IMG/VR virus record: IMGVR_UViG_3300040801_004428
Span: 1 to 64,000 of that record
From: a virus
DNA: 64,000 bases
Strand: one strand, 5' to 3'
Within the stretch, counting starts at the first letter, position 1. Every line of letters begins with the position of its first letter. Below, piece by piece: positions 1,760-35,937 of this stretch. The position numbers and the translations under genes were made by a program. The notes beneath the pieces were generated by a model. It made no database searches, was not told where the DNA came from, and was given only the letters and a program-made list of their open reading frames with translations.

Positions 1760-1769
1760 CGCCCTCCAC

Positions 1770-1797
1770 TGGTGTACAAGAAAAAACTCAAATGGAG
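1770..1797 (+). promoter_or_regulatory. TGn-N6-xG-A6 upstream element (copy q)
   Basis: TGG-TGTACA-AG-AAAAAA-CTCAAATGGAGAATGTTA-ATG(1805). The leader is nearly identical to that of the CDS starting at 4914. Confidence 0.5.
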
Positions 1798-1804
1798 AAT
1801 GTTA

Positions 1805-20478: not shown

Positions 20479-20551
20479 TGCGAGTTACAGGAGTTGAACC
20501 TGTCTGAGCCCAATTATGAGTTGGGTGCCTTATCCGCTCGGCCAAACTCGC
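20479..20551 (-). tRNA. tRNA-Met (anticodon CAT; an Ile-lysidine type cannot be excluded)
   Basis: Folded by hand into a 73-nt cloverleaf: acceptor GCGAGTT/AACTCGC, anticodon stem CCCAA/TTGGG, loop CTCATAA, T-arm ACAGG-TTCAACT-CCTGT. No encoded CCA. Confidence 0.85.
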
Positions 20552-21009: not shown

Positions 21010-21038
21010 TTTACACCTCAATTAGGTTTTTTCTCCAA

Positions 21039-21111
21039 CGCCCCGTGTAGGATTCGAACCTACGACCCACGGTTTAGAAGACCGTTGCTCTATCCGCTGA
21101 GCTAACGAGGC
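21039..21111 (-). tRNA. tRNA-Arg (anticodon TCT)
   Basis: Hand-folded 73-nt cloverleaf: acceptor GCCTCGT/ACGGGGC (one G-T pair), D-stem GCTC/GAGC, anticodon stem ACGGT/ACCGT, loop CTTCTAA, T-arm GTAGG-TTCGAAT-CCTAC. Confidence 0.9.
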
Positions 21112-21121
21112 AGATGTGTTT

Positions 21122-23800: not shown

Positions 23801-25413
23801 AGTGAGTATTCCTTGCTCAAAATTGCTTGGACCGCAGGTGTAAGGTCTTGACTCCTCAATTGAGGTTTCAACCCCATGAATCGCTGCGCATGTGGAGAGT
23901 TCCACCCATCGTGTGATTTACTGCTCGGTCCTAGGTCCATTTTACCATGGAAGTCAGCACACTGCGTACGCATTGCCTCGACGAATTTCTGCCTCGACAT
24001 GCATGTGGCCCCCGGATTGTTGTCCACCAACCATGCGCGGTACGTCTCGTATACTGTACGTACAGTGGGATTTTGATACGGATCGTTGGGGTCATACAAC
24101 TTGTCGGGGATAACATCCCAGAGGGAGTCAACAAACAGGGCGATGTTACTCGATTGGCCTGTAACCTCGAGTGCGAATGCATTAAAGGTTAGAGTGTCCT
24201 TTGCGTCTCGGAACACCCCGGAGGCTTCCTCCACTGAAGAGAATTGACTCAACAGGTAGCCAATAATCTGAGGAGTTTCTTCCTCAAGTTTGGTTCCCAT
24301 ATTAAAGTCTTTCTTCCCAGTGATGGGTGGTACCACGATGACTAAGGCCCTCCGGTTGAGTCCCGAATCAGTGGGTGGTAACACCGCAGTGTTTGAAGCC
24401 ATGATGATCATTGCCCTACAGCGGAATGAATACGGCGTGCGGGCATACGCCACCCGGCCGGTTATTTCATCCGCTGTCGCCATTTTGAGCAGAATGCCGC
24501 CATGTTTCGACACGACGAGGGGTTCTCTCTCATCGGGGAATACCACCAGTGAGGATGATCTAATCGGGTAGATTGAACTCGCGTCTGTTAGCTCCTTAAT
24601 TGTCAGGGTGCTGGTTCTGGTCTGCCCCGCAATGCTATTTAGACAATCAATGTATGTTGATTTCCCCGTTCCTCCTTGTGAGGAGTATAGATGCAAAATT
24701 GATGTCTGCTGCGATCTATGACGCCCTGACATTGATATCAGCGCCGCTGCGAGGAGTACTCGCTTGACTTCGGGCTTACCTCCGGAGAGGTTATCAATCA
24801 TTTGGAGGAAGTTAACTGGCGGGTTTTCCTCACTAGGTGGGACATAATCATGCTTGATTTTGGAAATCAGGTGCCAGTCCTTCTCGTGGGGGACTAGCTC
24901 CTTTGTGGAGAATACATACACTCCGTTATTGAACGGAATGTAACCTTTACTAAGGTCGTATTTCTCCCTGATTGATTTCTCCGGGTTGGGGTAGAACTTC
25001 CTAGCTCCGTTGTAACAGGCGATCTTAGTCACAAGGTGTTCTAATTGGCGGGAAGTTAGTGACTGTAGGTCGTCGAACGACTGGCCTTGTAACTGAGCGT
25101 GTAGGATACTTGCTTTTATTTTGAATTCATCGTATGGAACGTCTTCCCAAGTTCCATAAGCAGCATCAGAATCATCACCGGCATCAGAAGGATCCCTAAA
25201 GTTATAAACAGTAAACTCTTTCCCGTCTCTAGGAAAGCATCCAGCCTGGGCGATTGTGACTGCGGTTCTCGTGATAGGGGAGAATTGTTCCCCGTCTGCC
25301 GGTTTGAGTTCTCCGAGTTGAGAGGGATTAAGCTCAATTCCTCCTCCTCCTTCTCCTCGATTTCGGTAGTCTCCTGTAATGTTGGCAAGAATATCTGATA
25401 GTCCAGACTCCAT
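23797..25413 (-). CDS. SF3 (D5/P4-type) replicative helicase
   Basis: Walker A SSQGGTGKST, Walker B LVVFPDERE, motif C IIMASNTA. GAGGA lies 7 nt before the ATG. Confidence 0.75.
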   Translation of the reverse strand: MESGLSDILANITGDYRNRGEGGGGIELNPSQLGELKPADGEQFSPITRTAVTIAQAGCFPRDGKEFTVYNFRDPSDAGDDSDAAYGTWEDVPYDEFKIKASILHAQLQGQSFDDLQSLTSRQLEHLVTKIACYNGARKFYPNPEKSIREKYDLSKGYIPFNNGVYVFSTKELVPHEKDWHLISKIKHDYVPPSEENPPVNFLQMIDNLSGGKPEVKRVLLAAALISMSGRHRSQQTSILHLYSSQGGTGKSTYIDCLNSIAGQTRTSTLTIKELTDASSIYPIRSSSLVVFPDEREPLVVSKHGGILLKMATADEITGRVAYARTPYSFRCRAMIIMASNTAVLPPTDSGLNRRALVIVVPPITGKKDFNMGTKLEEETPQIIGYLLSQFSSVEEASGVFRDAKDTLTFNAFALEVTGQSSNIALFVDSLWDVIPDKLYDPNDPYQNPTVRTVYETYRAWLVDNNPGATCMSRQKFVEAMRTQCADFHGKMDLGPSSKSHDGWNSPHAQRFMGLKPQLRSQDLTPAVQAILSKEYSL

Positions 25414-25652
25414 AGGTAGTCCTCAGTAAGGGTTAGTGAGCTAATTTGACCTTCTTGTTCCATGACAACTAATGTGGTCGGCATTTCGTTGTTTGGGAGA
25501 TTTGTTTGTAGGATATGCTCAACGTATGGGCCTTTTGTAAAGCCCGTTGGTTGGAGCATAATTGCCGCGTCGTCGATTAGAATAAATTCCATAGGTACGT
25601 CTTTCATTAGATACACGTATACCACTGGAATTGCAATTTGTTCTTCAATCAT
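25116..25652 (-). CDS. hypothetical protein; 3' 300 nt overlaps the helicase gene out of frame
   Basis: The ATG at 25652 overlaps the stop of the ThyA-like gene (ATGA). The first ~80 codons fill the 25414..25652 gap. The rest is an alternative frame of the helicase N-terminus (acidic run plus a hydrophobic segment). Confidence 0.4.
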   Translation of the reverse strand: MIEEQIAIPVVYVYLMKDVPMEFILIDDAAIMLQPTGFTKGPYVEHILQTNLPNNEMPTTLVVMEQEGQISSLTLTEDYLWSLDYQIFLPTLQETTEIEEKEEEELSLIPLNSENSNRQTGNNSPLSREPQSQSPRLDAFLETGKSLLFITLGILLMPVMILMLLMELGKTFHTMNSK

Positions 25653-26491
25653 GTTATGGGTTTGAACCTCTCTTTTGGTAGGTCTAGTTTGTAATAGTTC
25701 CCCACGTTGAAGTGCCTCGGCTTGAGCGCGAGCATATCTTCAAAGCTTTGCAATGGGGGAATTACCACATTCTCGTGGGATGGGTATTCGAGTGTTGGAA
25801 ACTCCTTAGATTGTATTACCTTGTGTGCGTACTTCGAATGCGGTTGGTACACATGTGAATTGGAAACAGTCCAGTGTAGCTTCCAAGGTTTTACTTCTAA
25901 CAATTTAGAAAACATTTGAAGCAATGCCCAATAGCGGATTACATCACCCGGGAATCCCACGATCAAGTCTTGCGACCTACCGACTACGTGCAACTCCAAC
26001 CAATTGCTCTTAGTCGCGTGGAATATCAACGTCGGGTGGCAAGGCGGGACGCGGTCGATACCCAAATCCGATGGGCCCGGCTGATTGGTGGGATCAAACA
26101 GTTGGATGACTGCCCGTCGGGTGAGTATATTCTCTTTGAGTAGTACATAAGTATTGTAGAGCTGATCTACCTGTCCAGCGAAGTTTCGAAAGCTCGCTCC
26201 GTAGGTGTTTGGCAACGACCCGTCGCGATTAGCCCAAGTTTGCCACAAATACGAGGCTTTACCCAACTTATTTACATTCGTATTCCCATTGAGGTCCCAC
26301 ATCAATTCTTGCAAATAATGTTTGACCGGATGGCGACGGTCCGTCAAATATGGGGCCGGTTCCCCATACTCCCAAACAGTAACGGTTGGTTGAAACGTAG
26401 CTTTTGTAGAAGCACCTCTGGAGAAGATAGTCGTGCCTGTAAGGAGAGCCCTAGTAAGCATCTCCTTATATATTTCCATTATTGGTTGCAT
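25649..26491 (-). CDS. ThyA-fold pyrimidine C5 (hydroxy)methylase, predicted dCMP-specific
   Basis: ThyA landmarks ELMWDLNGNTN, RRAVIQLFDP, PPCH (catalytic Cys), GRSQDLIVGFPGD and SNSHVY. Asp replaces the Asn177 equivalent. Confidence 0.7.
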   Translation of the reverse strand: MQPIMEIYKEMLTRALLTGTTIFSRGASTKATFQPTVTVWEYGEPAPYLTDRRHPVKHYLQELMWDLNGNTNVNKLGKASYLWQTWANRDGSLPNTYGASFRNFAGQVDQLYNTYVLLKENILTRRAVIQLFDPTNQPGPSDLGIDRVPPCHPTLIFHATKSNWLELHVVGRSQDLIVGFPGDVIRYWALLQMFSKLLEVKPWKLHWTVSNSHVYQPHSKYAHKVIQSKEFPTLEYPSHENVVIPPLQSFEDMLALKPRHFNVGNYYKLDLPKERFKPIT

Positions 26492-26525: not shown

Positions 26526-29291
26526 TTAGTAGGAGAACAACTCCTCCGGTTGTAGGGACTCAGATACAATTTGTCCCTCCCAACTAGGGGTTTTAATACT
26601 CCCTCCTTCTTTTGCAAATCGATCCATGATTTCAATAGATTCTGGAAATGCCAGCACGGTTGGTATTTCAAACACCAACCCTAGCGCTTCGATTAACATC
26701 GCCCATGAGAGTAAGTGCGCGACTGCTGCATTTTGAGCGACTTTATACGCATCAGATTTTGCCACCAACCAACCGTATTCATCATGGTAGGGGATCAAGA
26801 ACTTTGCGTCGAGACCCATATGGTTGTTGAAATAATCTGTGAGGGTAATCATTGTGTGCATAAAATCCGCACCGGATCCTTGAATAAAGGCGTTAAATCG
26901 CGATGTTAGTTCTGCATTTGGGCGAGGCAAGTATCTCGTCTGAATTGGCAGGGGTAGTCTAACCCCCAGCAATGGAGTTGCGGGCGTTGGATCTTCCATC
27001 AGGGATAGAACCCCATTAAAGAATTCAGTATGAGTTCCTGACTGCTCCTCGTAGTAGCTAGAACGCAGCTTCTTAGTCCCCCTCATGTATTGTAAGGTCT
27101 CTACAGCGGCAGATTTTGCAAGAGCTTGGTCTGGAATGTGTGCTGCCATTTCTTTCCAGATGGTTTTCGTGGCGGCGGTAACCCCACAGAAGTAGTTTAA
27201 CGCATAGTTGAGCTGCTTCCCGCTGTCACGAGAGTAGTTTGGTAGACCAATCAACGCTCCCAACTTCCGAGCGGTGTTACTATGCGCGTCGGTTTTGTCA
27301 TGTTTGTTACCTGCAAATTGCATGTAGCCAAACGGCGTTATGCCTAGCACTGGAATTGTTGCAAACTTTGAGGCAATTAGCGCAGCAATGAATGCCTCCT
27401 GTGCTGTTACGTCAAAACATACGATTCTCTGCTCTTCGGGTGGAGCAATAAGCATGAGTCGAACTTCATTCCCGATCTTCTTGTCATTTGGGCCCGGAGA
27501 TGGGACCGTTGATAAGACAGGTGATCCAGCCCGGCCTGTGATTGTTTGGTGCGGGACATGGTCGGTTACAATCTTTCCGTTGTAGATGATAGTTCCGTCA
27601 ATCCGGCCGCGCATCGAAGTCCAATAACAGACTTTAATTGCCAGGTCTAGTAGCTCCTGACCTTGTGCAATTTGAGACTTGATAGCCCCGGTCTCGAAGA
27701 ACTCAACGTAGGATTGGTTCAACACTCCTCCTACATTAGCACCAAGGTTCTTCATATGAGGGATTTTAATAACCTCACCTGTGTCATCAACAATGTGGTA
27801 CTTAACCTCCGAGTTGTATAACACCGGATAGTCTTTATACGTCAATCGGGCTAACACATGCGCGAGTTGTGTCTTCGCACCGTAGGCGTCTTTCTTATCT
27901 GCGGTGATATACCAACGGGGTTTACCATAAAGTTCGGGATACTGCGGTACTTTGTATGTCCGCTTGGCGATGATTGGTTTGCCCGTGCGTGGGCTTGGTT
28001 CTTTCTCCCACTTGCCGGGAGTTGCCGCGCACCGGATTTCGTAATTCTTCAGTTTGGTGTTCATTGACCAATCGAGTTGCGACAACCAAGGGTCTGATTC
28101 AGGATCAACGTCCCCACTGAGAAATGCTTTGTACACATTCTTTGCCTCGGCTTTGATGATTTCTTCGAATTGGTGGTTTGCTTCGTGGTAGAGTTTCTCA
28201 CATTTGTGATACCACTCAATGATGTTATCGTCCGCTTTGACTGAGTTGAACGATACTGCTAACATCCCATAGAGGGAGATCATATTGTCTTGCCCAATCT
28301 GCTCGAAGTACTTCATAAGCAAGATTTGGGTGAGTGGGATTAGATCCGCCGCGTCTTGTAGCGAGTATTTGATAATCTCCGCAAAGTGGTCTAACATCTC
28401 ATTGATGTTGCACTTCACGAAATATTCTCGCGTATCTTTAGCATCCTTAGTTCGATTGACCCTATCCGCCAGATGATGCTCTAACAATGAGATTAAGTCC
28501 CCCCGGCAGCCATGCTTAGGCTTGTTGGGGGATTTCATTTGGTTGGAGGTCATTCCCGAAACTTTCTGGTGAAGGGAGAAGGTATCAATGACGAGAATGT
28601 CACACTTGTCTTGGTAGAATTCCTCAGTGCGGATGACGTCAAATCTTGCGTTGTGGGCGATTAGGATCTTGACATGTGGTCCGATGGGTAGTAGTTTAGG
28701 CTGGTAGGGTTCATCAGGTTGGAACCATACCTCATGGAGGTGGATGTACAACTCACCGGTGGCAGTTGCGGCGGTTCCGATAATCGGTGTGTTTGCCATT
28801 GGAAATTCGGATCCCAAGACGTAGGTTTCAGTATCGTAGAAGAGTACTGATTCGGTGGGGTACTCCACTCGGATTGGAGAGCCTAATTTGTCAAGTTTGT
28901 ACCAACCTTCTCCGTCAAACTCATCGATGGAGTATGAGCCCTTGATTTTGTACTTCGGAGTTGGAGGTATCAACGTCGAGAGTAGGCGAATTCGTTTGAG
29001 GTTATCTTCTCCGATTAGTTTACGCGCGGCGGTGTTGGCCCGCTCGCGGAGAGTACTCCCTTGGGGGAGACCTTTAATGATGGTGTCAACCTTATCGATT
29101 AGACTATCAGAAAAAGGTTCTCCAGGCTCGGGTAGTACATCAGTACCAATTTGCTCATTCCATCGTTGCTTAGCATTAGCCACCATCGTCTTAGTAAATT
29201 CAGACATGGCGGGTGGCTCGTACTCGGGTGCAATAGCACGCAGCACTTTGGGGTCTACTGCTGGGTAGCCCATCAATGTTTTATTACTCAT
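26526..29291 (-). CDS. family A DNA polymerase with 3'-5' exonuclease domain
   Basis: Exo motifs FYDTETY and HNARFDV. Pol motif A FDVTAQEAFIAA, motif B RDSGKQLNYALNYFCG, motif C PYHDEYGW. Confidence 0.85.
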   Translation of the reverse strand: MSNKTLMGYPAVDPKVLRAIAPEYEPPAMSEFTKTMVANAKQRWNEQIGTDVLPEPGEPFSDSLIDKVDTIIKGLPQGSTLRERANTAARKLIGEDNLKRIRLLSTLIPPTPKYKIKGSYSIDEFDGEGWYKLDKLGSPIRVEYPTESVLFYDTETYVLGSEFPMANTPIIGTAATATGELYIHLHEVWFQPDEPYQPKLLPIGPHVKILIAHNARFDVIRTEEFYQDKCDILVIDTFSLHQKVSGMTSNQMKSPNKPKHGCRGDLISLLEHHLADRVNRTKDAKDTREYFVKCNINEMLDHFAEIIKYSLQDAADLIPLTQILLMKYFEQIGQDNMISLYGMLAVSFNSVKADDNIIEWYHKCEKLYHEANHQFEEIIKAEAKNVYKAFLSGDVDPESDPWLSQLDWSMNTKLKNYEIRCAATPGKWEKEPSPRTGKPIIAKRTYKVPQYPELYGKPRWYITADKKDAYGAKTQLAHVLARLTYKDYPVLYNSEVKYHIVDDTGEVIKIPHMKNLGANVGGVLNQSYVEFFETGAIKSQIAQGQELLDLAIKVCYWTSMRGRIDGTIIYNGKIVTDHVPHQTITGRAGSPVLSTVPSPGPNDKKIGNEVRLMLIAPPEEQRIVCFDVTAQEAFIAALIASKFATIPVLGITPFGYMQFAGNKHDKTDAHSNTARKLGALIGLPNYSRDSGKQLNYALNYFCGVTAATKTIWKEMAAHIPDQALAKSAAVETLQYMRGTKKLRSSYYEEQSGTHTEFFNGVLSLMEDPTPATPLLGVRLPLPIQTRYLPRPNAELTSRFNAFIQGSGADFMHTMITLTDYFNNHMGLDAKFLIPYHDEYGWLVAKSDAYKVAQNAAVAHLLSWAMLIEALGLVFEIPTVLAFPESIEIMDRFAKEGGSIKTPSWEGQIVSESLQPEELFSY

Positions 29292-29345: not shown

Positions 29346-29771
29346 TTACCACCTAAATGTGCGAAAGTTGGAATGGCGAAGCAAGGGTTTCCAGTCCTGC
29401 GCAACATAGTGGTCATATACCACTTGTAAGAAGCGGTAGAACTGACACTCCGAAACTTGCCGGCGGTTTAGCTCCTCTTGTTTGATTAAATCCTTGCAGA
29501 TCCAGTTCTCCAAGGAGACAATCTTCCCTTCGAAGGAGACTCCCATGAATGCCATAGTGGTGTGTTCTTTAACCTCATTGGCGAGAGTCACGGTGGCTAG
29601 GTCCACCTCAAGTTTGAAATTACCTTGGAAGATTATTTTCACCTTTAGTGAAGACTTAGCTTTTGGTTCAAAACTAATGTAGTTCAACCCTTTGAATACT
29701 TCCTCATAAGAAGGATGAGCATTCAATATGTTAGTTGTCTCCTCGACAATTACCCTCTGATCTAGTTTCAT
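29346..29771 (-). CDS. hypothetical protein
   Basis: 141-aa ORF with AGAGG before the ATG. Confidence 0.7.
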   Translation of the reverse strand: MKLDQRVIVEETTNILNAHPSYEEVFKGLNYISFEPKAKSSLKVKIIFQGNFKLEVDLATVTLANEVKEHTTMAFMGVSFEGKIVSLENWICKDLIKQEELNRRQVSECQFYRFLQVVYDHYVAQDWKPLLRHSNFRTFRW

Positions 29772-29776
29772 AAGTA

Positions 29777-29807
29777 CCTCTTAAGTTTTTTTCACGTATA
29801 ACATTGC
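29777..29807 (-). promoter_or_regulatory. TGn-N6-TG-A7 upstream element (copy b)
   Basis: Minus strand reads GCAATGT-TATACG-TG-AAAAAAA-CTTAAGAGG...ATG(29771). Confidence 0.55.
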
Positions 29808-29863
29808 GGCTGGAGTCTGCCTCCTCCGATTTGACCTCAATAGCCTCCTGTCGAATATTATCG

Positions 29864-30400
29864 TTAATAATCTTCAGTAGGCTGAGAGCCGTGCCGGTCA
29901 GCTTCTGGCTGTTGGCTACCAGGTAGTTGGTAGCTTGGGTCATTAATTGCATTCTTTACAATGTCCTCCACGAAGTGTTTGCAATTGTAGCGCACAAGAT
30001 GGTATCGCTTGTGTTTACCACTAACCATCTGGAGCGATTTGTACGTCATGTATTCCAGAATCTTCTGGTTTATCTCAGTGTTCCAAGCTAAACCTGGTAC
30101 TGGCAATACAGTATTTGGATCCCAGGGTTCGTAAGCTGGATGACAGAAGTAGTATCCAGCTGATAATTCGGGATCTTGTAGTTCAGGTCCTGTATAAAGT
30201 CCTAACAACAACGGCCCCGAACTTGTTCCGTGAATTAACACGAAGTAGTGCGGGACCGGTATGTAATAACCATCTGCTGTTTGGATTAGCCCTAATTTGT
30301 ACCACACTAGTGGTGTTTCATCAGGGCTTATCTTTGACTGACTTTCAGGACCCTTAGTGAGGATTTTTAACAAATCTTCATTCAGGATCTTTGGGATCAT
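29864..30400 (-). CDS. H-box/NC thiol hydrolase (LRAT/H-rev107-like, NlpC/P60 superfamily; PPPDE-like is the alternative)
   Basis: ..PHYFVLIHG.. (H-box) and ..YHLVRYNCKHFVEDIV.. (NC motif; compare NCEHFV). The ATG shares a base with the stop of the RHH gene. Confidence 0.5.
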   Translation of the reverse strand: MIPKILNEDLLKILTKGPESQSKISPDETPLVWYKLGLIQTADGYYIPVPHYFVLIHGTSSGPLLLGLYTGPELQDPELSAGYYFCHPAYEPWDPNTVLPVPGLAWNTEINQKILEYMTYKSLQMVSGKHKRYHLVRYNCKHFVEDIVKNAINDPSYQLPGSQQPEADRHGSQPTEDY

Positions 30401-30726
30401 TATTCTGCGGCAACCGCCTCCTTAACAGGTGCAACTGGCTCGAATTGTTGATCTACCGCGAATTGGTACAACTGCGTGGTAACATTATTCATCGGAAGAG
30501 AAAGATTCTGCGCAATGTCTTTAATCGCAGCTTTTACGTCCGTTGAAATTGTAACCGAGGTAGATTCCTCACCCAGTTCAGCCTCGGGGCTAACCGGTGC
30601 GCTGTTTTGTAGTGCATAGTTGAGCATCTGATCGAGATATTCTCGACGACTCATACTTGCTGCGTTTGCTTCAGCGTTGATTGTTTCGCGGTCTACTTTG
30701 ATTTGTACAGAAGCAGTATTAGCCAT
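30400..30726 (-). CDS. ribbon-helix-helix DNA-binding protein (two RHH-like units)
   Basis: ATG at 30726 (MANTASVQIKVDRETINAEANAASMSRREYLDQML..), with a second unit ..VTISTDVKAAIKDIAQNLSL.. . AAGGAG lies upstream. Confidence 0.45.
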   Translation of the reverse strand: MANTASVQIKVDRETINAEANAASMSRREYLDQMLNYALQNSAPVSPEAELGEESTSVTISTDVKAAIKDIAQNLSLPMNNVTTQLYQFAVDQQFEPVAPVKEAVAAE

Positions 30727-30735
30727 TATTTGTGT

Positions 30736-30770
30736 CTCCTTAAGACTTAGTTTTTTTCTTTGGTCGACCC
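30736..30770 (-). promoter_or_regulatory. A7 leader element (copy h)
   Basis: Minus strand reads GGTCGACCAAAGAAAAAAACTAAGTCTTAAGGAGAC. The leader is identical to copy e. Confidence 0.45.
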
Positions 30771-30850
30771 CCTTTGGGATATCTCCATTATATAAGTATA
30801 CGCACTCGGTTTGGGTAATATTATATGAATTACAGGAAAAATTTTTTCTC

Positions 30851-31738
30851 ATGGATTATCGCCAAAAAGCAATTGATCTCATCACAACACGCTGGCAACG
30901 AGAGAATCTCATCAACCATGAGAATGAGATTGATGGCATTCTACGCTCAATTGTGGGACAACCTCCTCGGCCTGCTAACCGCAAACCGTTTGAAGGCCTG
31001 TATGGAATTCGTCCCATGGCAGAATACTACCGCCTGGCTTGGGGAACCATTAAAGCAAATTTGCCCCAAATCTCAGACGAAATTTTAGACTCACTCCTCC
31101 GTGTGTTGGTCAACCAACCGCCAAGGCCAGAAGGCGATGAACCATACATAGGCCTGTTTGGAAAACGACCGCCGGAGGAGGTACAACCTCTCCAGGTTAA
31201 GATCGATAAGAATGTACTACTCCAAGTGCCATATTACTCCCAACGGGATAATAAAAACCAACCATGGAGAGAGTGTTGTAGTAGCTCGGCCGCAATGGTA
31301 GCTGAAGCGCTAAAACCGGGATGTATTAACGGCTCTGATGATTTGTACGTATCAAAGTATGTAAACAAATATGGCGACACTACTAGCCATAGAGTGCATA
31401 CTCTCGCCCTCAAGGAGTTAGGTATTGACTCTCATTGGATCTACAATGGGGATTTTAGAGACATTGATGAGCAATTAGAAAAAGGTTATCCGGTAATGTT
31501 TGCGTACCTCCACCGAGGGTCGGACTCCCACCCCGTTGGTGGCCATTGCGCTGTGATCATCGGAAAGGAAAAAGACGGGTATAAGATCAACGACCCATGG
31601 GGTTCTTACGCGCCGGATTTCTACGACCCATACTGGGGCGCGGGGATTTACTACCCCAAATCGTTTTTCAAATCCCGGTGGTTGGTAAATCAACGTAAGT
31701 CAGGCTGGATGAGAGTAATAGACAATGTTAAAGTGTAA
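30851..31738 (+). CDS. peptidase C39-like (C39_2) cysteine peptidase, candidate endolysin
   Basis: ATG at 30851. ..VPYYSQRDNKNQPWRECCSSSAAM.. (Cys), ..GGHCAVIIG.. (His), ..INDPWG.. (Asp). The N-terminus holds two copies of a 26-aa QPPRP...GL(Y/F)G.RP repeat. Confidence 0.55.
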   Translation: MDYRQKAIDLITTRWQRENLINHENEIDGILRSIVGQPPRPANRKPFEGLYGIRPMAEYYRLAWGTIKANLPQISDEILDSLLRVLVNQPPRPEGDEPYIGLFGKRPPEEVQPLQVKIDKNVLLQVPYYSQRDNKNQPWRECCSSSAAMVAEALKPGCINGSDDLYVSKYVNKYGDTTSHRVHTLALKELGIDSHWIYNGDFRDIDEQLEKGYPVMFAYLHRGSDSHPVGGHCAVIIGKEKDGYKINDPWGSYAPDFYDPYWGAGIYYPKSFFKSRWLVNQRKSGWMRVIDNVKV

Positions 31739-32504
31739 AGGCAATACTAAGCTATGCAAAAAGAAATGCATCCCCCAATGGCAGGAATGTATCGAACCGG
31801 CTGAAAAACCAGCCCCATTAGAAGAACCCGATACATCTTCCTACGACCGATTGTTGGATGACTTCCGATTTTCTTTAGACCTCCGCAGGGATGTACTAAA
31901 ACGCGCGTTTAATACTCCCCTTGAGTCTTCTAAAATCGCAATGCAAAAGATCGAAGAGGGTAACACCTTCATTAGGAGACAAATCTCCCATAATGAGGTA
32001 AACTTCCGCCCTACTTTGAATGAATATGCCATATCGAGAATCAACCGAGCAATTGTAGAATCTTCAAACTCCGCCTGGCAAGCAGTGGAAAAGGCTGCAA
32101 ATATGCTTACCCACTCCCTTGTAGCCCTCCTATGGCAGGAGACAACCCACGAGAAAGTCTACTACCAACAAGTTGTAGCTTCCCTAAATAGACCTGCAGG
32201 CGGGGTTGGTAATACTCTATCAGAGATATGGAACAATGATCTTGACCTTTCTACGTTGAAGGAAACATACGTGAGGTATGTAAAAATAGGCAGAGAAAAC
32301 ATGCTTAGAGATCAAGAAAGCGAATCAGGCTCACCAACTAGGAATGCCATTCACTTTTTTGAAGACTTCAAAGGAGCTGTAACCTTCAGCCTTTCAGAAG
32401 CCTTAATTGGCACGGGGGTTGAATGGAAAGAACCATTTAGCAAAACGTTCCATCTATTCGCAACAATCTACGGAGAGCCAACTAACAGCAATGTCACAAA
32501 TTAA
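31725..32504 (+). CDS. hypothetical protein with N-terminal C-x6-C-x3-C-x6-C motif
   Basis: 259 aa, MLKCKGNTKLCKKKCIPQWQEC.. . Confidence 0.65.
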   Translation: MLKCKGNTKLCKKKCIPQWQECIEPAEKPAPLEEPDTSSYDRLLDDFRFSLDLRRDVLKRAFNTPLESSKIAMQKIEEGNTFIRRQISHNEVNFRPTLNEYAISRINRAIVESSNSAWQAVEKAANMLTHSLVALLWQETTHEKVYYQQVVASLNRPAGGVGNTLSEIWNNDLDLSTLKETYVRYVKIGRENMLRDQESESGSPTRNAIHFFEDFKGAVTFSLSEALIGTGVEWKEPFSKTFHLFATIYGEPTNSNVTN

Positions 32505-34185
32505 ATGCGGACCGGGCAACAAAGCATGCGGTAAGCGCTGCATTCCACAAAAGCATAAATGCGCACTCCGCGGTGAAAAAGACGCCGAGGAGATGAAGCC
32601 CGATAAGGCTAAAAAACAAGAAGATCCTAGAAAACAAAAGAAGGAAAAAGCCGCTCCTGAAGAAAAACCCGAGAAGAAAAAAGGCTCTAAGCTTAAAACC
32701 GCCGCTATTGTAGGCGCGTCTGTGCTTGGTGCTGCCGGTGTTGCGTTTGTCGCGGCGGGTGTTGCTACAGGGAAGGTTAAACTCCCTGGGCAGGATCAAG
32801 CAGTGTCGGCGTTTCAAACAACTAAGGGAGTTGTCACAGACCCTGAACAGCGCAAGGCTGCCATACAACAAGGTCGTCAGCAACTTTCCACGATGACTCA
32901 AACGGTTTCGGAACAAGCCTCCGCGCAGTACGGAAAGGTTTCTGAAGGGTTTAAAGGTATCCAAAAGGCTATACAAAACCCGGGTCAGACCATCAACGCA
33001 ACTTTTTCAAACTCCACGTTGGAAAACATGGGCCAGACTATAGCCCTCGGGTCTAAGTCCGCTTTAGAGGGAGTTTCTTCTTCTGTGAAAGGCTCCGCGA
33101 CTATTATGGCAGCGGCGGGTAAAGACTTATTCGAAAAAGCCGGCGCGGATATGAAAGCAGTGTCAGAAGCCACTACAAATAGCATTCGCGGCGCTGGGGA
33201 TGACATGAAGCAGTATTGGGCAACTATGAAAGATGCCTCACCTTCAGAAATGAAGGCTGCTACTCTAGACCTCGCCGGTAAATACATGGAAGGCGGTCGC
33301 GAAGGTGCAAAAGCTTTCATGCAAGGAGCCGGCGCAAGTGCTAAAGGTGCTGGAGAGACGCTAGGCGCGGCAGGCTCTCTAATCAAAGGTGAAATGGCAG
33401 CCGGAGCTCAAAAGGTCGGAGAATCCGCAGCTTTCATGAAAGAAGGCCTATCATCCTACGCCCCTGAACTCAAAGACCAAGTAGTTGGCGCAGCCCAAGG
33501 TGCTAAAGACATGGCAGGCAATGCAGTCCAAGGTGCCAAAAACATGGCGGGCAATGCTGTCCAAGGCGCACAAAACGCCGCGGGTAGTGCCGTCCAAGGG
33601 GTTAAAGACGCCGCCGGTGCAACAGTCTCCGAAGCGCAACGCGTTGGAGGAGAACTCGGCGCATTTGCAAAAGACGTCGGTGCGGCGGGGCAAGCTATAG
33701 GTGATGCGACCAATCAGGCTGCGCGTCAAGCTGGCGCTGCAGTGACACGAGCCGGCACAGATGTGGCTAGCAGAACTGGTGCGTCGTTTGAAAACGCGGC
33801 GGGGAATATTGCCAGCAGTGCGGAGCAAAACATGCAGGCGGTAGACATTGCCAGAGAAGAGTTGGGGAATAATATCCGCGGTGCTTTGGATGCTCCTGAT
33901 GCTGCAGCTTCTGAAAAGTTGGTCAGCCAAGCGAATGACCTCTACGGTAATGCGCAAGCTGAGGCTGGAAAAAACATCGTGAATACAGCCACCGAGAATG
34001 CCAAAGCATTTATGGGTGATTTCAAAGGTGCCGTTGAGGATAACATGACGGAGATGGTGCAAAAACTAACGGGCGCTGGTCAAACTTGGCAAACGGCCGT
34101 GGCATCCGCTTTTGGATCCCTAAATTCAATGCACGGCGACGGAGCTAGTGGCATTGGTGGGGAAATTGATGATCCTTGGGATTAA
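32491..34185 (+). CDS. membrane-anchored Ala/Gly-rich repeat protein with N-terminal C-x6-C-x3-C-x6-C motif
   Basis: ATG at 32491 (MSQIKCGPGNKACGKRCIPQKHKC..), a Lys/Glu-rich linker, a hydrophobic segment AAIVGASVLGAAGVAFVAAGVATG, then 11-residue amphipathic repeats. Confidence 0.65.
   Translation: MSQIKCGPGNKACGKRCIPQKHKCALRGEKDAEEMKPDKAKKQEDPRKQKKEKAAPEEKPEKKKGSKLKTAAIVGASVLGAAGVAFVAAGVATGKVKLPGQDQAVSAFQTTKGVVTDPEQRKAAIQQGRQQLSTMTQTVSEQASAQYGKVSEGFKGIQKAIQNPGQTINATFSNSTLENMGQTIALGSKSALEGVSSSVKGSATIMAAAGKDLFEKAGADMKAVSEATTNSIRGAGDDMKQYWATMKDASPSEMKAATLDLAGKYMEGGREGAKAFMQGAGASAKGAGETLGAAGSLIKGEMAAGAQKVGESAAFMKEGLSSYAPELKDQVVGAAQGAKDMAGNAVQGAKNMAGNAVQGAQNAAGSAVQGVKDAAGATVSEAQRVGGELGAFAKDVGAAGQAIGDATNQAARQAGAAVTRAGTDVASRTGASFENAAGNIASSAEQNMQAVDIAREELGNNIRGALDAPDAAASEKLVSQANDLYGNAQAEAGKNIVNTATENAKAFMGDFKGAVEDNMTEMVQKLTGAGQTWQTAVASAFGSLNSMHGDGASGIGGEIDDPWD
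33490..33621 (+). repeat. four tandem 33-nt (11-codon) repeats within the CDS
   Basis: Encodes AAQGAKDMAGN / AVQGAKNMAGN / AVQGAQNAAGS / AVQGVKDAAGA. Confidence 0.8.
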
Positions 34186-35937
34186 TCACGTACAACATAG
34201 TGGCTCAAAGAACAGACCAGGATCTCCGGTTTCTTTATACCGGCTCTTGATCTGTTTTGCCATGCGAGCAGCTGAGTTTGGATTATCTTTAGTTGCTCGG
34301 CTGGGATGGCCGAGGTCAATTAGATGTTGTTTCAGCTGCTTGTCGTTAAACAAGCCGAGTTTACCAACCTCAATTAGTTGCTTAAAACTTGCGGCTATAT
34401 CGGACCCTTTGTAGTTGCGCCGCCAGTAGTTATACCACAGGGAGGTAATTCCCGCCTCTGCGGCTTGCTCTTTGTGAGGATCCGTCTGCCGTTTCTTAGT
34501 TTGAGCTTTCTTAGCCGGTGGGGTGTAATCATCCACTGGGAGGATTTCAACCGAGTTGATGGTTAGAGCCTGAAGTTCGGATCTATAATAGTTGCGCGTG
34601 TCATTGTAGCGATCATTCCATAGGTCGTGTTCTCCCCGGGTGGTTTCAATATCCCGTTCGACTTTGCCCTTATCGGATTTTGTAATCCGTTTGATTGATT
34701 GCTTCATAAGCCAGGGCAAATGTTCTGGATATGGCACAATTTTGGCCAGTTCCTCTTCGGGTAGGTCTGTAACCTGGGTCGAATGCTCTCGCGCGTATTT
34801 CAACAACAGAAGTTGGTGCAATTTAATTTGTGTGTCCGCGCGGCGGTTGTATGCAAATTTGCGCAAATAATCGAGGGTAGTTTCCACATAGTAGGTTAGG
34901 TAGTCTCCCTCATTTGTGAATTCAATTGGGCGTGAGGTCTTTGGATCATAGTATTTGAACTTTTCAACGGTGGTTTTGCGCAAGCCCGCGGTATAGAGTA
35001 AGGGTAAGACATCCTTTTCAGTTCTTCCCCGCTTAAGTTGAATCTTAATATGGATTCCAATCTTACCTGATGACAGGTCTTGAACGGATTTGATAGGCAC
35101 ATTGGTGGCCTTCTTCAACTTCTTGACCTTATCGGCCAAGTTTGTGCAGAATTTTGCAGCTGACACATTGGGCGGCAGCGATCGGATGTTGATTACAGAC
35201 CCGTTGGTGTTCCACTCACCGGTGACCACATACGACAATTCGTCTTTCTGCGCAATGCGCCCACCCGTCGGTGGAGTTGGTACCATGCGGTCGGCCGTCC
35301 GACCACGGAGAATTTCCAAAATTTGGTCTTTCAACTGCTGTGGTGTGCGCGCCATAGTTGTATGACTATAGCCAACCGCAATGCCGGTCATGTTCCACAG
35401 TAGGGATAGGGGTAACAGACTGGGTAGATACGTCGGTTCGTAACCTTGCCCGTCGTAGGTTGGCACCATTTGGAGTAATTCCTTATCGATGTAAGGTTTC
35501 ACCATTTGGAACAACAAGTCTGATCCACGGACCTCGGTGTATCGTTCTGCGGCTGGTGGATCCTCACTGATGAGTGCTACGTACTCGCTTCCTTCGGGCG
35601 CTGTGTACATCCACGGGCCATTACCATGCCCGGTGATCATTGGCGCGTGGGAGTTTGACCGATCTGCGAGGTAGCACACTGATCCGTATGAGCCACTATG
35701 TGGGTGGATAGCCATCACCTGGCCTACCAACTTTGCGGATTTCATCAACTTATTGATGTTCTGCGACAAGATTGTCCACAAAATGCGTCGGTAGACTTCC
35801 GATAGTCCGTCGTCCGATGATGGCAAGGCTCTCGACATGACAGAAATCGCATACTCAAAGTATGAATCCTGCATTTCTTTGATTAAAGGTGTGGTTACGA
35901 TCTCACTCGCCTTTCCTATCGTCTGGCGGTTCGTCAT
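34186..35937 (-). CDS. type II topoisomerase A-subunit homologue (GyrA/ParC/T4 gp52-like)
   Basis: ..EYAISVMSRALPSSDDGLSEVYRRILW.. , ..AIHPHSGSYG.. , ..AAERYTEVR.. (active-site Tyr context). Confidence 0.75.
   Translation of the reverse strand: MTNRQTIGKASEIVTTPLIKEMQDSYFEYAISVMSRALPSSDDGLSEVYRRILWTILSQNINKLMKSAKLVGQVMAIHPHSGSYGSVCYLADRSNSHAPMITGHGNGPWMYTAPEGSEYVALISEDPPAAERYTEVRGSDLLFQMVKPYIDKELLQMVPTYDGQGYEPTYLPSLLPLSLLWNMTGIAVGYSHTTMARTPQQLKDQILEILRGRTADRMVPTPPTGGRIAQKDELSYVVTGEWNTNGSVINIRSLPPNVSAAKFCTNLADKVKKLKKATNVPIKSVQDLSSGKIGIHIKIQLKRGRTEKDVLPLLYTAGLRKTTVEKFKYYDPKTSRPIEFTNEGDYLTYYVETTLDYLRKFAYNRRADTQIKLHQLLLLKYAREHSTQVTDLPEEELAKIVPYPEHLPWLMKQSIKRITKSDKGKVERDIETTRGEHDLWNDRYNDTRNYYRSELQALTINSVEILPVDDYTPPAKKAQTKKRQTDPHKEQAAEAGITSLWYNYWRRNYKGSDIAASFKQLIEVGKLGLFNDKQLKQHLIDLGHPSRATKDNPNSAARMAKQIKSRYKETGDPGLFFEPLCCT

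What the first reader, a model, noticed from the sequence alone, without database searches (positions are those of the whole stretch)
29864..30726. Ribbon-helix-helix protein translationally coupled to an H-box/NC (LRAT/H-rev107-like) thiol hydrolase: a toxin-antitoxin-like or regulator-effector pair
The 30400..30726 product begins with a textbook RHH unit (VQIKVDRETINAEANAASMSRREYLDQML) and has a second RHH-like unit. Its stop shares a base with the ATG of 29864..30400 (TAATG). The downstream protein carries PHYFVLIHG and YHLVRYNCKHFVEDIV. These are the His-box and NC-motif of the circularly permuted papain-like LRAT/H-rev107 branch of the NlpC/P60 superfamily (compare NCEHFV); PPPDE/DeSI peptidases are the closest alternative. 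A small RHH gene followed by an overlapping enzyme gene is the classic type II TA layout. H-box/NC enzymes act as phospholipases/acyltransferases or as amidases/deconjugases. In a phage this pair could be a lysis or membrane-remodelling effector under tight autoregulation. It could also be a counter-defence deconjugase, or an addiction-like module. It lies divergent to the C39-like peptidase operon.
Basis: partly seen in the sequence, partly recalled or inferred. Interest (0 to 1): 0.7.

Follow-up and report, generated by a model that had tools for sequence, protein, structure and literature searches.

The report
Orphan phage gene pair: regulator-like plus hydrolase-like
Two small, tightly packed genes at the head of a cyanophage-like virus's DNA-replication operon are real and conserved in one other virus; the second probably encodes a very divergent cysteine hydrolase of the PPPDE/LRAT type and the first may be a small DNA-binding regulator, but neither assignment reaches significance and nothing supports a toxin-antitoxin role.

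Summary
The 108-aa ORF (30400..30726, -) and the 178-aa ORF (29864..30400, -) exist, share the A of TAATG, carry the quoted motifs and lie divergent to a C39_2-like peptidase gene. In billions of proteins searched the pair has one relative, on a 3.4-kb metagenome contig with the same gene order, so both are real genes of a two-member orphan family.

For the 178-aa protein, every profile signal lies in the C-terminal ~45-70 residues. It is sub-threshold: Pfam Peptidase_C97/PPPDE E 0.0018 and LRAT E 0.029, and hhalign P about 0.002 against each family. PPPDE fits better than LRAT. His51, Tyr133 and Cys140 reproduce the PPPDE His-Tyr-Cys triad with the same Tyr-x6-Cys spacing. LRAT's GD, HHGIY and second-His signatures are absent. 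AlphaFold2 models were poor (pLDDT 37 and 45), and Foldseek returned noise.

The ribbon-helix-helix (RHH) call rests on sequence pattern and weak hits only.

TA features are not shown. The stop/start overlap is common in this genome, and the pair has no independent mobility.

The intergenic region is conserved and holds two ATAT(N0-2)CCCAAA boxes around a TATAAT, plus a GGTCGACC palindrome.

Best reading: an autoregulated regulator-effector pair. Interest is modest.

The parts
30400..30726 (-). 108-aa small protein, first gene of the leftward operon. Candidate RHH-like DNA-binding regulator.
   Evidence: ORF with AAGGAG 10 nt upstream. It has a 50%-identical orthologue, P0003, in the same position on L003. 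Weak hits: phrog_5118 E 4e-9 and NCBIfam VapB_Myco antitoxin E 0.0058. There is no Pfam or PDB RHH hit for the window protein.
30607..30714 (-). Unit 1 (residues 5-40): strand-like SVQIKVD, then two predicted helices joined by SMS.
   Evidence: The pattern was read from the sequence. Hits: VapB_Myco model on residues 14-45 and phrog_5118 E 0.065. It also matches a Sec62 helical segment in the PDB at E 6e-4, so the hit pattern is not specific to RHH.
30451..30564 (-). Unit 2 (residues 55-92): strand-like SVTISTD, then two predicted helices.
   Evidence: Hits: phrog_5118 E 5e-6, Pfam RHH_5 E 0.11 for the orthologue's unit 2, and hhalign against CopG P 0.01. Unit 1 and unit 2 are not detectably similar to each other.
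30409..30471 (-). Conserved C-terminal tail LYQFAxDxxFEPVAPxxKEAVA. Possible partner-binding peptide. Its KEA codons form an AAGGAGG 12-16 nt upstream of the next ATG.
   Evidence: This is the most conserved block of the small protein. The sequence was read.
29864..30400 (-). 178-aa protein. Candidate divergent permuted papain-fold Cys hydrolase, closest to PPPDE/Peptidase_C97. No signal peptide or membrane segment was seen by eye.
   Evidence: Pfam: C97 E 0.0018 and LRAT E 0.029. hhalign P 0.0017 against a PPPDE mini-profile and P 0.0021 against an LRAT mini-profile. Only one homologue exists, P0004. AF2 pLDDT was 37 and 45.
30248..30250 (-). His51, candidate catalytic His, immediately before predicted strand 52-59.
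   Evidence: Invariant in both family members. Aligned to PPPDE His38 only in a relaxed hhalign alignment with low column confidence. Strand position is from the low-confidence AF2 model. There is no independent profile support.
29972..30004 (-). Y133-H-L-V-R-Y-N-C140-K-H-F: the NC motif, with the candidate oxyanion or orienting Tyr133 and the nucleophile Cys140.
   Evidence: Invariant in both members. It is the only such motif in the window. The Tyr-x6-Cys spacing equals Tyr101/Cys108 of PPPDE1 (PMC9012467). The predicted helix 140-152 starts at Cys140.
29930..29938 (-). P155-S-Y (P-D-W in the orthologue), aligned to the PPPDE 'IP.[YW]' motif 15-16 residues after the Cys.
   Evidence: hhalign alignment and conservation. 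Weak evidence.
30727..30850 (.). Conserved divergent promoter/operator region between the pair and the C39_2-like gene.
   Evidence: It is 77% identical to L003. That compares with 51% and 62% for the two CDS and 26% for the non-coding spacer 29772..29863. Its long motifs are unique in the window. No RNA structure or Rfam hit was found.
30810..30821 (-). Box 1, ATATTACCCAAA. Candidate operator half-site upstream of the -10.
   Evidence: ATAT(N0-2)CCCAAA occurs only twice in 64 kb, both times here and in the same orientation. Both copies are conserved in L003.
30787..30792 (-). TATAAT, candidate -10 of the leftward promoter.
   Evidence: It lies within the fully conserved block GTATACTTATATAAT. 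Not tested.
30773..30782 (-). Box 2, ATATCCCAAA. Candidate operator half-site just downstream of the -10.
30762..30769 (.). Perfect palindrome GGTCGACC inside a 33-nt conserved block.
30851..31738 (+). Divergent 295-aa C39_2-like peptidase, with an endolysin-type C-terminal domain.
   Evidence: Pfam Peptidase_C39_2 E 6e-8 and phrog_10051 'endolysin' E 8e-48. It is 78% identical to the L003 orthologue. Distant relatives are the C-terminal domains of 418-aa proteins whose N-terminus reads like a phage lysozyme; that reading is by eye only.
29346..29771 (-). Downstream 141-aa orphan gene of the same operon, followed by the DNA polymerase gene.
   Evidence: It is 37% identical to the partial ORF at the end of L003. 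No family hits.

Best explanation
The two ORFs are the first genes of the leftward early/replication operon of an uncultivated cyanophage-like virus. The order is 108-aa gene, 178-aa gene, 141-aa gene, pol-gamma-like DNA polymerase, thymidylate synthase, primase.

The 178-aa product is most likely a cytoplasmic, very divergent member of the circularly permuted papain-fold (NlpC/P60) superfamily. Its closest family is PPPDE/Peptidase_C97, not LRAT. The proposed chemistry has Cys140, at the N-terminus of a helix, as nucleophile; His51, on an upstream strand, as general base; and Tyr133, seven residues before the Cys, as third residue. This is the PPPDE His-Tyr-Cys arrangement. That chemistry hydrolyses or transfers an acyl group: an isopeptide, amide or thioester bond on a host or phage target.

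The 108-aa product is probably a small DNA-binding protein, RHH-like. It would bind the two ATAT(N0-2)CCCAAA boxes and/or the GGTCGACC palindrome that bracket the -10 in the conserved 124-bp divergent promoter. It would thereby limit its own expression and that of the downstream enzyme. This is a regulator-effector arrangement like arc-ant of phage P22, not an addiction module.

Shown: the genes, their conservation and synteny, the motifs, and the conserved non-coding boxes.

Inferred: the fold, the catalytic residues, DNA binding, autoregulation and the substrate.
For: The genes and their order are conserved in a second virus.

Enzyme:
- The only Pfam families touched are Peptidase_C97 (E 0.0018) and LRAT (E 0.029). 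The same two are the only families hit by the isolated C-terminal fragment (E 0.0014 and 0.0068), and C97 is also hit by the orthologue (E 0.022-0.11).
- The PDB profile search lists PLAAT4 over residues 108-147.
- hhalign against a PPPDE mini-profile gives P 0.0017 over 94 columns. It places His51 on the catalytic His, Cys140 on the catalytic Cys and P155-S-Y on the IP.[YW] motif. One of 250 column shuffles reached that score.
- hhalign against an LRAT mini-profile gives P 0.0021, and 0 of 300 shuffles reached that score.
- The motif occurs once in the window, against 1.6e-3 expected.
- His51, Tyr133 and Cys140 are invariant. The Tyr-x6-Cys spacing equals His38/Tyr101/Cys108 of PPPDE1 (PMC9012467).
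- The low-confidence AF2 model puts Cys140 at the first residue of a helix and His51 just before a beta-hairpin. This is as required of papain-like enzymes (PMC10318531).

Regulator:
- Weak hits: VapB antitoxin model E 0.0058, RHH_5 E 0.11 and CopG hhalign P 0.01.
- The intergenic DNA is more conserved than either CDS.
- The two boxes occur nowhere else in 64 kb and are conserved in L003.

Operon context.
Against: - Every family hit is below the curated cut-off. Corrected for roughly 100 proteins in the window, the best Pfam E-value is about 0.2.
- All profile signal sits in the C-terminal 45-70 residues. The N-terminal halves of both family members hit no Pfam family, so the His assignment is pattern-level only.
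- AF2 failed (pLDDT 37 and 45), and Foldseek against the PDB returned only noise with no papain-like hit.
- No RHH family is recovered for the window protein by Pfam or by three PDB profile searches.
- The orthologue P0003 hits no PHROG at all.
- The two units are not similar to each other.
- No experiment links the small protein to the conserved boxes. A host or other phage factor could bind them.
- The family has two members, so conservation cannot single out catalytic residues. 56% of all positions are invariant.
Confidence: 0.42

Rival explanations
1. The motifs are chance or convergent. Both products are orphan phage proteins of unrelated fold and function, for example small host-takeover or structural-accessory proteins. 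The NC-like motif is not a catalytic site and the small protein does not bind DNA.
For: - All hits are sub-threshold.
- The N-terminal halves have no hit.
- AF2 and Foldseek were uninformative.
- The best PDB hits of the enzyme profile at E about 0.8 are unrelated proteins, SAC3 and PilF.
- Residues 52-82 also resemble a CUB-like strand pair, and unit 1 resembles a Sec62 helix. This shows how easily short segments find look-alikes.
Against: - Both Pfam hits, the PDB hit and both hhalign hits converge on the same two related families, with the Cys aligned.
- The full motif is expected 1.6e-3 times per window.
- Three collinear features (His, Tyr-x6-Cys, P-x-[YW]) appear at PPPDE-like spacing and are invariant in the orthologue.
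- The predicted helix starts exactly at the Cys.
Confidence: 0.3
2. It is a type II toxin-antitoxin or addiction-like module. The 178-aa thiol enzyme is a growth-arresting toxin. The 108-aa protein is an RHH antitoxin that neutralises it through its conserved C-terminal tail and represses the operon.
For: - The layout is small gene first, then enzyme gene, with stop/start overlap.
- The small protein has a conserved C-terminal tail separate from the putative DNA-binding part.
- There is a weak hit to a VapB antitoxin model.
- The promoter holds conserved repeats.
- Permuted NlpC/P60 enzymes can be toxic effectors, for example Tox-Act1 (PMC12994826).
Against: - The pair occurs only twice in billions of proteins searched, both times in the same phage synteny at the head of a replication operon. 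It is never seen as a mobile two-gene cassette.
- There is no PADLOC hit.
- Overlaps of 1 or 4 nt are routine in this genome, and the orthologue has a gap instead.
- No paper in the library links PPPDE with antitoxins or RHH.
- The operon continues into essential replication genes, which is unlike autonomous TA loci.
- GC content is not aberrant.
Confidence: 0.12
3. It is an LRAT/H-rev107-type phospholipase or acyltransferase that remodels or attacks the host membrane, for lysis or superinfection exclusion.
For: - The NC-x-HF-V motif is identical in form to NCEHFV of PLAAT and bacterial LRAT proteins.
- LRAT is hit at E 0.0068 on the C-terminal fragment.
- The His51-to-Cys140 spacing of 89 matches His23-to-Cys113 of PLAAT3, which is 90; the sequence was verified.
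- Bacterial LRAT genes exist on plasmids, including one from Nostoc.
- Permuted NlpC/P60 enzymes often act on lipids (PMC12994826 and PMC3142127).
Against: - The LRAT profile aligns only 17 columns.
- The LRAT hallmarks conserved from bacteria to man are absent: GDhI, Y-x-HHGIY-x-G, and the second His in V-I-H.
- Three of the five bacterial LRAT proteins fetched (Nostoc, Acinetobacter, Pectobacterium) have a long hydrophobic or Ala/Gly-rich C-terminal region, read by eye and not tested. The 178-aa protein has none.
- The gene sits in the early/replication operon, not with late or lysis genes.
Confidence: 0.1

Closest known systems
PPPDE / Peptidase_C97 (DeSI-1, DeSI-2; PDB 2WP7, 3EBQ), and distantly Cln5
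   Same: - Circularly permuted order: His first, Cys last.
- Y-x-[LM]-x3-N-C-x-[HT]-F motif with Tyr exactly seven residues before the Cys, as in the His38/Tyr101/Cys108 triad.
- H-x2-[IV]-x-[IV] strand at the His.
- A P-x-[YW] motif 15-16 residues after the Cys.
- Best Pfam hit, and the longest hhalign alignment.
   Different: - Scores are far below the family threshold: 18.6 bits against 29.2.
- His-to-Cys spacing is 89 residues against 70.
- The N-terminal V-x-L-N-V-Y-D-L strand motif is not recognisable.
- The N-terminal half gives no profile signal.
- The known family is eukaryotic plus dsRNA-viral. This one is in a dsDNA phage, paired with a small upstream gene.
LRAT / H-rev107 (PLAAT) family, PF04970, including bacterial plasmid members
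   Same: - NC-x-HF-V motif and the preceding helix-G-x4-Y-x-L context.
- His-to-Cys spacing of about 90 residues.
- H followed by an aromatic residue and a hydrophobic strand.
   Different: - GDhI, HHGIY-x-G and the second catalytic His (V-I-H) are absent.
- Only 17 columns align.
- No C-terminal hydrophobic region of the kind read by eye in three of the five bacterial members fetched.
Phage P22 immI arc-ant operon (RHH repressor Arc followed by its effector gene ant). Cited from my own knowledge.
   Same: - A small RHH-type gene is first in the operon.
- It is immediately followed by an effector gene.
- The promoter carries short operator repeats, and the expected logic is negative autoregulation that limits the effector.
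   Different: - There is no sequence relationship (hhalign against Arc P 0.17).
- The small protein here is twice as long, with a possible second unit and a conserved tail.
- The effector is enzyme-like, not an antirepressor.
- The operon continues into replication genes.
Type II TA systems with RHH antitoxins (RelBE, ParDE, KacAT, VapBC of mycobacteria)
   Same: - Gene order, sizes and tight spacing.
- Putative N-terminal DNA-binding part plus a conserved C-terminal tail.
- Weak VapB-model hit.
   Different: - No known TA toxin family is involved.
- No mobility, and only two occurrences.
- The pair is embedded in a phage replication operon.
- Toxicity is unknown.
Tox-Act1 / TseH permuted NlpC/P60 T6SS effectors (PMC12994826)
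   Same: A permuted His...Cys core used in a biological-conflict setting, with the His and Cys essential for activity.
   Different: - Those are secreted, periplasm-acting phospholipases with membrane immunity proteins.
- No sequence hit here.
- The protein here lacks secretion signals, and its partner is upstream and soluble.

Membership tests
PPPDE / Peptidase_C97 (PF05903) | Score at or above the Pfam gathering threshold (29.2 bits) | tested here: not met
   Window protein: 18.6 bits, E 0.0018. C-terminal fragment: 18.9 bits. Orthologue: 12.8-15 bits. Three bona fide PPPDE sequences scored 158-173 bits in the same tool.
PPPDE / Peptidase_C97 (PF05903) | His-Tyr-Cys catalytic centre in permuted order, with Tyr seven residues before Cys (His38/Tyr101/Cys108 in PPPDE1; PMC9012467) | tested here: met
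   His51, Tyr133 and Cys140 are all invariant in both members, with Y-x6-C spacing. This holds at sequence level only. The His assignment is low-confidence.
PPPDE / Peptidase_C97 (PF05903) | Papain-like fold, with Cys at the N-terminus of the core helix and His on a beta-strand packed against it | tested here: inconclusive
   AF2 pLDDT was 37 (single sequence) and 45 (two sequences). The secondary structure is compatible: the helix starts at residue 140 and the hairpin starts at residue 52. Foldseek against the PDB gave no papain-like match.
PPPDE / Peptidase_C97 (PF05903) | Isopeptidase or thioesterase activity that depends on the Cys | not testable with these tools
   Needs biochemistry.
LRAT / H-rev107 (PF04970) | Score at or above the Pfam gathering threshold (24.3 bits) | tested here: not met
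   15.1 bits for the whole protein and 17.1 bits for the C-terminal fragment. No LRAT hit was listed for the orthologue.
LRAT / H-rev107 (PF04970) | NCEHF-type motif with the catalytic Cys | tested here: met
   N139-C140-K-H-F-V, invariant. It aligns to NCEHF of PLAAT3, PLAAT4 and five bacterial LRAT proteins.
LRAT / H-rev107 (PF04970) | N-terminal GD strand, H-box (Y-x-H-[HW]-[GA]-I-Y-x-G) and second His 12 residues later (V-[IV]-H) | tested here: not met
   In the alignment of PLAAT3 with five bacterial LRAT proteins these are near-invariant. The query has P-H-Y-F-V-L-I-H-G, with no GD and no V-I-H, and hhalign does not align this region.
Ribbon-helix-helix (RHH) DNA-binding proteins | Significant match to an RHH family or to a solved RHH protein | tested here: not met
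   No Pfam RHH hit for the window protein at E<=10. RHH_5 scored E 0.11 for the orthologue's unit 2 only. VapB_Myco scored E 0.0058, 17 bits against a cut-off of 60. Three PDB profile searches found no RHH. The best hhalign P was 0.01, against CopG.
Ribbon-helix-helix (RHH) DNA-binding proteins | Beta-strand with alternating hydrophobic residues, then helix A, a short turn and helix B, about 45 residues in all | tested here: inconclusive
   The pattern is visible by eye in residues 5-40 and 55-92. The two units are not similar to each other.
Ribbon-helix-helix (RHH) DNA-binding proteins | Binds repeated operator sites in its own promoter | not testable with these tools
   Candidate sites exist: two ATAT(N0-2)CCCAAA boxes and GGTCGACC, conserved and unique. 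Binding is untested.
Type II toxin-antitoxin module | Two-gene cassette found in varied genomic contexts (mobile), matching known toxin or antitoxin families | tested here: not met
   Only two occurrences exist, both in identical phage synteny. No PADLOC hit and no toxin family.
Type II toxin-antitoxin module | Toxin arrests growth, and the antitoxin binds and neutralises it | not testable with these tools
   Needs expression tests.

The most novel reading that the evidence does not exclude
A dsDNA cyanophage encodes, at the very start of its early/replication operon, a new bacterial-virus branch of the PPPDE-type His-Tyr-Cys hydrolases. Until now that family was known from eukaryotes and dsRNA viruses. 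The enzyme would act in the host cytoplasm as a deconjugase or deacylase. It might strip ubiquitin-like conjugates made by host defence systems of the Bil or CBASS-Cap2 type, or remove acyl groups from a host defence or membrane-anchoring protein. A dedicated tandem-RHH repressor, co-translated with it, would keep its dose in check.
Probability: 0.08. Interest if true: 0.75.

Novelty: new variant of a known kind. Interest (0 to 1): 0.33.

Why it matters
If the assignment holds, this would be a two-member, phage-borne family of the permuted papain-fold superfamily nearest to PPPDE. PPPDE has been described from eukaryotes and dsRNA viruses, and its chemistry (isopeptidase or S-deacylase) is the kind used to reverse protein modification.

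An early-expressed, cytoplasmic enzyme of that type in a cyanophage would be a candidate host-takeover or counter-defence factor. It comes with a ready-made regulatory handle: a conserved operator-like promoter and a small partner protein.

As it stands, it is a reasonable but unproven annotation of two orphan genes. Its main practical value is a short, well-defined list of residues (His51, Tyr133, Cys140) and DNA boxes to test.

Tried and rejected
1. More family members:
- The word-indexed search of 5.8 billion clusters, with the single sequence and with the two-sequence profile, found only the window protein and P0004.
- The exhaustive phmmer search of 1.84 billion representatives found P0004 plus three repeat-protein artefacts.
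- tblastn against 50,697 phage records found nothing.
- Pattern scans of viral, metagenome and genome contigs found nothing.

2. Structure: AF2 on the single sequence gave pLDDT 37, and on the two-sequence alignment pLDDT 45. Foldseek against the PDB gave only noise: MYST acetyltransferases, ribosomal proteins and Nsp9.

3. PDB sequence and profile searches: no significant hit for either protein. A Sec62 helical segment hit for unit 1 (E 6e-4) was judged irrelevant.

4. Small protein:
- tblastn against phages found nothing.
- The homologue search found only P0003.
- The internal-repeat test of unit 1 against unit 2 was no better than shuffles.

5. PADLOC and NCBIfam: nothing for the enzyme.

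6. Synteny through the C39_2 gene: five distant loci were found, but there the domain is the C-terminal part of 418-aa proteins whose N-terminus reads like a phage lysozyme, and the pair is absent.

7. RNA element in the conserved leader: no Rfam hit, and folding z-score -0.6.

8. Horizontal-transfer signature: GC content is not aberrant.

9. Bacterial LRAT neighbourhoods were checked as a test of an 'RHH + LRAT' rule. One of five has a small upstream ORF and four do not.

10. A forced global hhalign alignment to LRAT was meaningless.

11. A CUB-like similarity of residues 52-82 was rejected as a summed-repeat artefact.
Full report
**1. Observation**

- On the minus strand a 108-aa ORF runs from ATG 30726 to TAA 30400-30402. 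AAGGAG lies 10 nt upstream of its start.
- A 178-aa ORF runs from ATG 30400 to 29864. The two share one base (TAATG).
- All three quoted peptides are present.
- The next gene on the other strand is a 295-aa Peptidase_C39_2-like protein (30851..31738; Pfam E 6e-8; phrog_10051 'endolysin' E 8e-48).

The window is a novel cyanophage-like genome.

- The 921-aa DNA polymerase (26526..29291) is pol-gamma-like. Its best tblastn hits are S-TIM5-type cyanophages at 31% identity.
- No DNA-level match exists in 50,697 phage records.
- Downstream of the pair on the same strand lie a 141-aa orphan, the polymerase, thymidylate synthase and primase.
- The pair therefore heads the replication operon.

**2. 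Are they genes, and how widespread are they?**

Both products are orphans.

- The word-indexed search of 5.8 billion clusters returned only the query for the 178-aa protein.
- An exhaustive phmmer scan of 1.84 billion representatives returned one true homologue, P0004 (166 aa, 56% identity), plus three repeat-protein artefacts.
- A second search with the two-sequence profile again found only those two.
- Pattern scans of viral, metagenome and genome contig collections added nothing.
- The small protein has one homologue, P0003 (104 aa, 50% identity).

P0003 and P0004 are adjacent on one 3.4-kb JGI contig (L003), and the synteny is complete. It runs: divergent C39_2 peptidase (78% identical), then the conserved intergenic region, the small gene, the enzyme-like gene, and a homologue of the 141-aa gene.

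On L003 the stop and start are TAG-A-ATG, a 1-nt gap. An in-frame TAA 18 nt upstream of the small gene's ATG rules out the longer 150-aa reading frame that the window alone would allow (sequence).

So the genes are real and under selection, but the family has two members. This limits every profile method.

**3. The 178-aa protein**

*Pfam.* Only two families are touched, both below threshold.

| Family | E-value | Bits | Gathering threshold | Query residues |
|---|---|---|---|---|
| Peptidase_C97 (PPPDE) | 0.0018 | 18.6 | 29.2 | 82-151 |
| LRAT | 0.029 | 15.1 | 24.3 | 126-147 |

The orthologue gives C97 only, at E 0.11.

I split the proteins to locate the signal. The N-terminal halves (residues 25-110) of both members hit no family at all. 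The C-terminal fragment alone reproduces C97 (E 0.0014) and LRAT (E 0.0068).

*PHROG, NCBIfam and PADLOC.* These give nothing meaningful for the enzyme: no family for the window protein, and only one E 0.19 chance hit for the orthologue.

*PDB.* HMMER profile searches give no significant hit. PLAAT4 appears at E about 1 over residues 108-147, alongside unrelated proteins at similar E-values.

*Reference sequences.* I verified two by searching them against the PDB: PLAAT3 and the 3EBQ/2WP7 PPPDE protein, both 100% identical to deposited chains. I fetched five bacterial plasmid proteins annotated as LRAT family, one from Nostoc.

*hhalign against the LRAT mini-profile.* It aligns only 17 columns around the NC motif. 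P is 0.0021, and 0 of 300 column shuffles reached that score. The LRAT signatures that are near-invariant from bacteria to man are absent from the query: GDhI, Y-x-HHGIY-x-G, and the second His in V-I-H.

*hhalign against the PPPDE mini-profile.* Its three sequences each score 158-173 bits on PF05903. The result is P 0.0017. With relaxed alignment it spans 94 columns (residues 47-161). It places His51 on the catalytic His, Cys140 on the catalytic Cys, and P155-S-Y (P-D-W in the orthologue) on the PPPDE IP.[YW] motif. One of 250 shuffles reached the score.

*Catalytic residues.* The PPPDE1 active centre is His38/Tyr101/Cys108 (PMC9012467). The query has His51/Tyr133/Cys140, with the identical Tyr-x6-Cys spacing, and all three are invariant.

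*Motif frequency.* Y.[LIVM]...NC.[HT]F occurs once among 454 stop-to-stop ORFs of the window, against 1.6e-3 expected.

*Structure.* AF2 failed to give a usable model: pLDDT 36.8 for the single sequence, and pLDDT 45.2 with pTM 0.40 for the two-sequence alignment. Foldseek against the PDB returned only noise. The predicted secondary structure does put a helix starting exactly at Cys140 and a beta-hairpin starting just after His51. That is the arrangement required of papain-like enzymes (PMC10318531).

*Assessment.* The signals converge on a permuted papain-fold thiol enzyme, nearer to PPPDE than to LRAT. None is significant once the window-wide selection is allowed for: the best Pfam E-value times roughly 100 proteins is about 0.2. 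The His assignment is pattern-level only. I put the fold assignment at roughly even odds, a little above.

**4. The 108-aa protein**

The RHH idea rests on the visible strand-helix-turn-helix pattern in residues 5-40 and 55-92, and on weak hits:

- phrog_5118, a family of unknown function: E 4e-9 for the whole protein, E 5e-6 for unit 2 and E 0.065 for unit 1, with both units matching the same part of the profile;
- NCBIfam mycobacterial VapB antitoxin model: E 0.0058, 17 bits against a cut-off of 60;
- Pfam RHH_5: E 0.11, for unit 2 of the orthologue only;
- hhalign against CopG: P 0.01.

Against it:

- No Pfam RHH family is hit by the window protein.
- Three PDB profile searches find no RHH protein.
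- The orthologue hits no PHROG.
- The two units are no more similar to each other than shuffled controls.

The protein evolves faster than its neighbours: 51% nucleotide identity, against 62-73% for adjacent genes. The exception is a conserved C-terminal tail, LYQFAxDxxFEPVAPxxKEAVA. I rate RHH as plausible, at about one half.

**5. The intergenic region**

The 124-bp spacer (30727..30850) is 77% identical between the two viruses. That is as conserved as the best coding DNA nearby. The other non-coding spacer (29772..29863) is 26% identical.

It contains perfectly conserved blocks:

- ATATTACCCAAA (30810-30821);
- GTATACTTATATAAT, with a TATAAT at 30787-30792;
- a 33-nt block, ATATCCCAAAGGGG(G)TCGACCAAAGAAAAAAAC, holding the palindrome GGTCGACC (30762-30769).

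The motif ATAT(N0-2)CCCAAA occurs only twice in 64 kb. Both copies are here, in the same orientation, bracketing the TATAAT. Both are conserved on L003.

There is no Rfam hit or unusual RNA fold. This looks like a promoter with operator sites. That the small protein binds them is inference.

**6. TA or not?**

The TA-like features are generic.

- Overlaps of 1 or 4 nt occur at no fewer than six other long-ORF junctions in the window: at 8750, 12445-12448, 17071-17074, 25649-25652, 53991 and 59596.
- The pair is never found outside this one phage synteny.
- There is no hit to defence or TA model libraries.
- GC content is unremarkable.
- The operon runs on into essential replication genes.
- No paper in the library links PPPDE with antitoxins or RHH.
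- Of five bacterial LRAT genes inspected, only one has a small upstream ORF.

A regulator-effector arrangement, like P22 arc-ant (my own knowledge), explains the layout at least as well.

**7. The divergent gene**

Distant relatives of the C39_2-like domain, at 33-34% identity, are the C-terminal domains of 418-aa proteins. Their N-terminus reads like a phage lysozyme, which I judged by eye only. They have no RHH/enzyme pair nearby. The neighbour is therefore probably a peptidoglycan peptidase. Nothing ties the pair itself to lysis.

**8. Verdict**

The most likely reading (about 0.4) is a small autoregulator plus a divergent PPPDE-like His-Tyr-Cys hydrolase, expressed early in the host cytoplasm. 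The substrate is unknown; by analogy with PPPDE chemistry it would be an isopeptide, amide or thioester bond (PMC9012467, PMC10318531).

The main rival (about 0.3) is that the motifs are fortuitous. TA (about 0.12) and LRAT-type lipid enzyme (about 0.1) follow.

If real, it is a new, tiny phage branch of a known superfamily with a new partner. That makes it a new variant of a known kind, of modest interest until a structure or a Cys140 phenotype is in hand.

Noticed in passing
window 31725..32504 (+) and 32491..34185 (+): Two consecutive proteins downstream of the C39_2-like gene begin with the same Cys motif (K-C-x5-C-x3-C-I-P-Q-x3-C); BLASTP E 6e-7 between their N-termini. The second is a 560-590-aa Ala/Gly-rich protein with a hydrophobic segment and internal repeats of the form GNAVQGAKNMAG. 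No family hit of note.
   Followed up: partly
window 30851..31738 (+), residues ~30-115: The C39_2-like protein has an N-terminal tandem repeat...VGQPPRPANRKPFEGLYG... and ...VNQPPRPEGDEPYIGLFG.... It is conserved in the L003 orthologue. In distant relatives (L004-L008) this N-terminal part is replaced by a domain that reads like a phage lysozyme, judged by eye.
   Followed up: partly
window 20479..20551 and 21038..21112 (-): Two phage-borne tRNA genes: tRNA-Met (CAT) and tRNA-Arg (TCT).
   Followed up: no
window 26526..29291 (-): A pol-gamma-like family A DNA polymerase with a mitochondrial-type exonuclease domain (Pfam DNApol_Exo E 5e-19). It is only 25-31% identical to those of S-TIM5, S-CBWM1, Mic1 and A-HIS cyanophages. 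The virus is a distant new relative of these phages.
   Followed up: partly
window 30157..30249 (residues 52-82 of the 178-aa protein): This stretch (YFVLIHGTSSGPLLLGLYTGPELQDP) resembles the repeated 'VRVYDGSTTGDELLGEFTGTSLPDP' strand pair of CUB-like modules in a 1473-aa metagenome protein, P0006, where it matches eight stretches. It is probably a summed-repeat artefact, but it overlaps the proposed His box.
   Followed up: no
window 30607..30699 (residues 10-46 of the 108-aa protein): Unit 1 matches a helical N-terminal segment of Sec62 (PDB 7kal_G; KMQREQLNAEAAKAGMTPEQYINQLRMRALQQ) at E 6e-4 in a PDB profile search. Unexplained, and probably a helix-turn-helix look-alike.
   Followed up: no
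L010 1156..1464 and 1489..2154 (Acinetobacter plasmid pNDM1_010055): A bacterial LRAT-family gene is preceded, 24 nt upstream, by a 102-aa hypothetical gene. The other four bacterial LRAT genes inspected have no such partner. Three of the five (Nostoc, Acinetobacter, Pectobacterium) carry a long hydrophobic or Ala/Gly-rich C-terminal region, judged by eye.
   Followed up: no
window 34186..35937 (-), 25649..26491 (-), 23797..25413 (-), 41815..43659 (+): Topoisomerase II-like, thymidylate synthase, primase and portal genes were identified by PHROG. The C39_2 operon is thus sandwiched between two leftward replication blocks.
   Followed up: no
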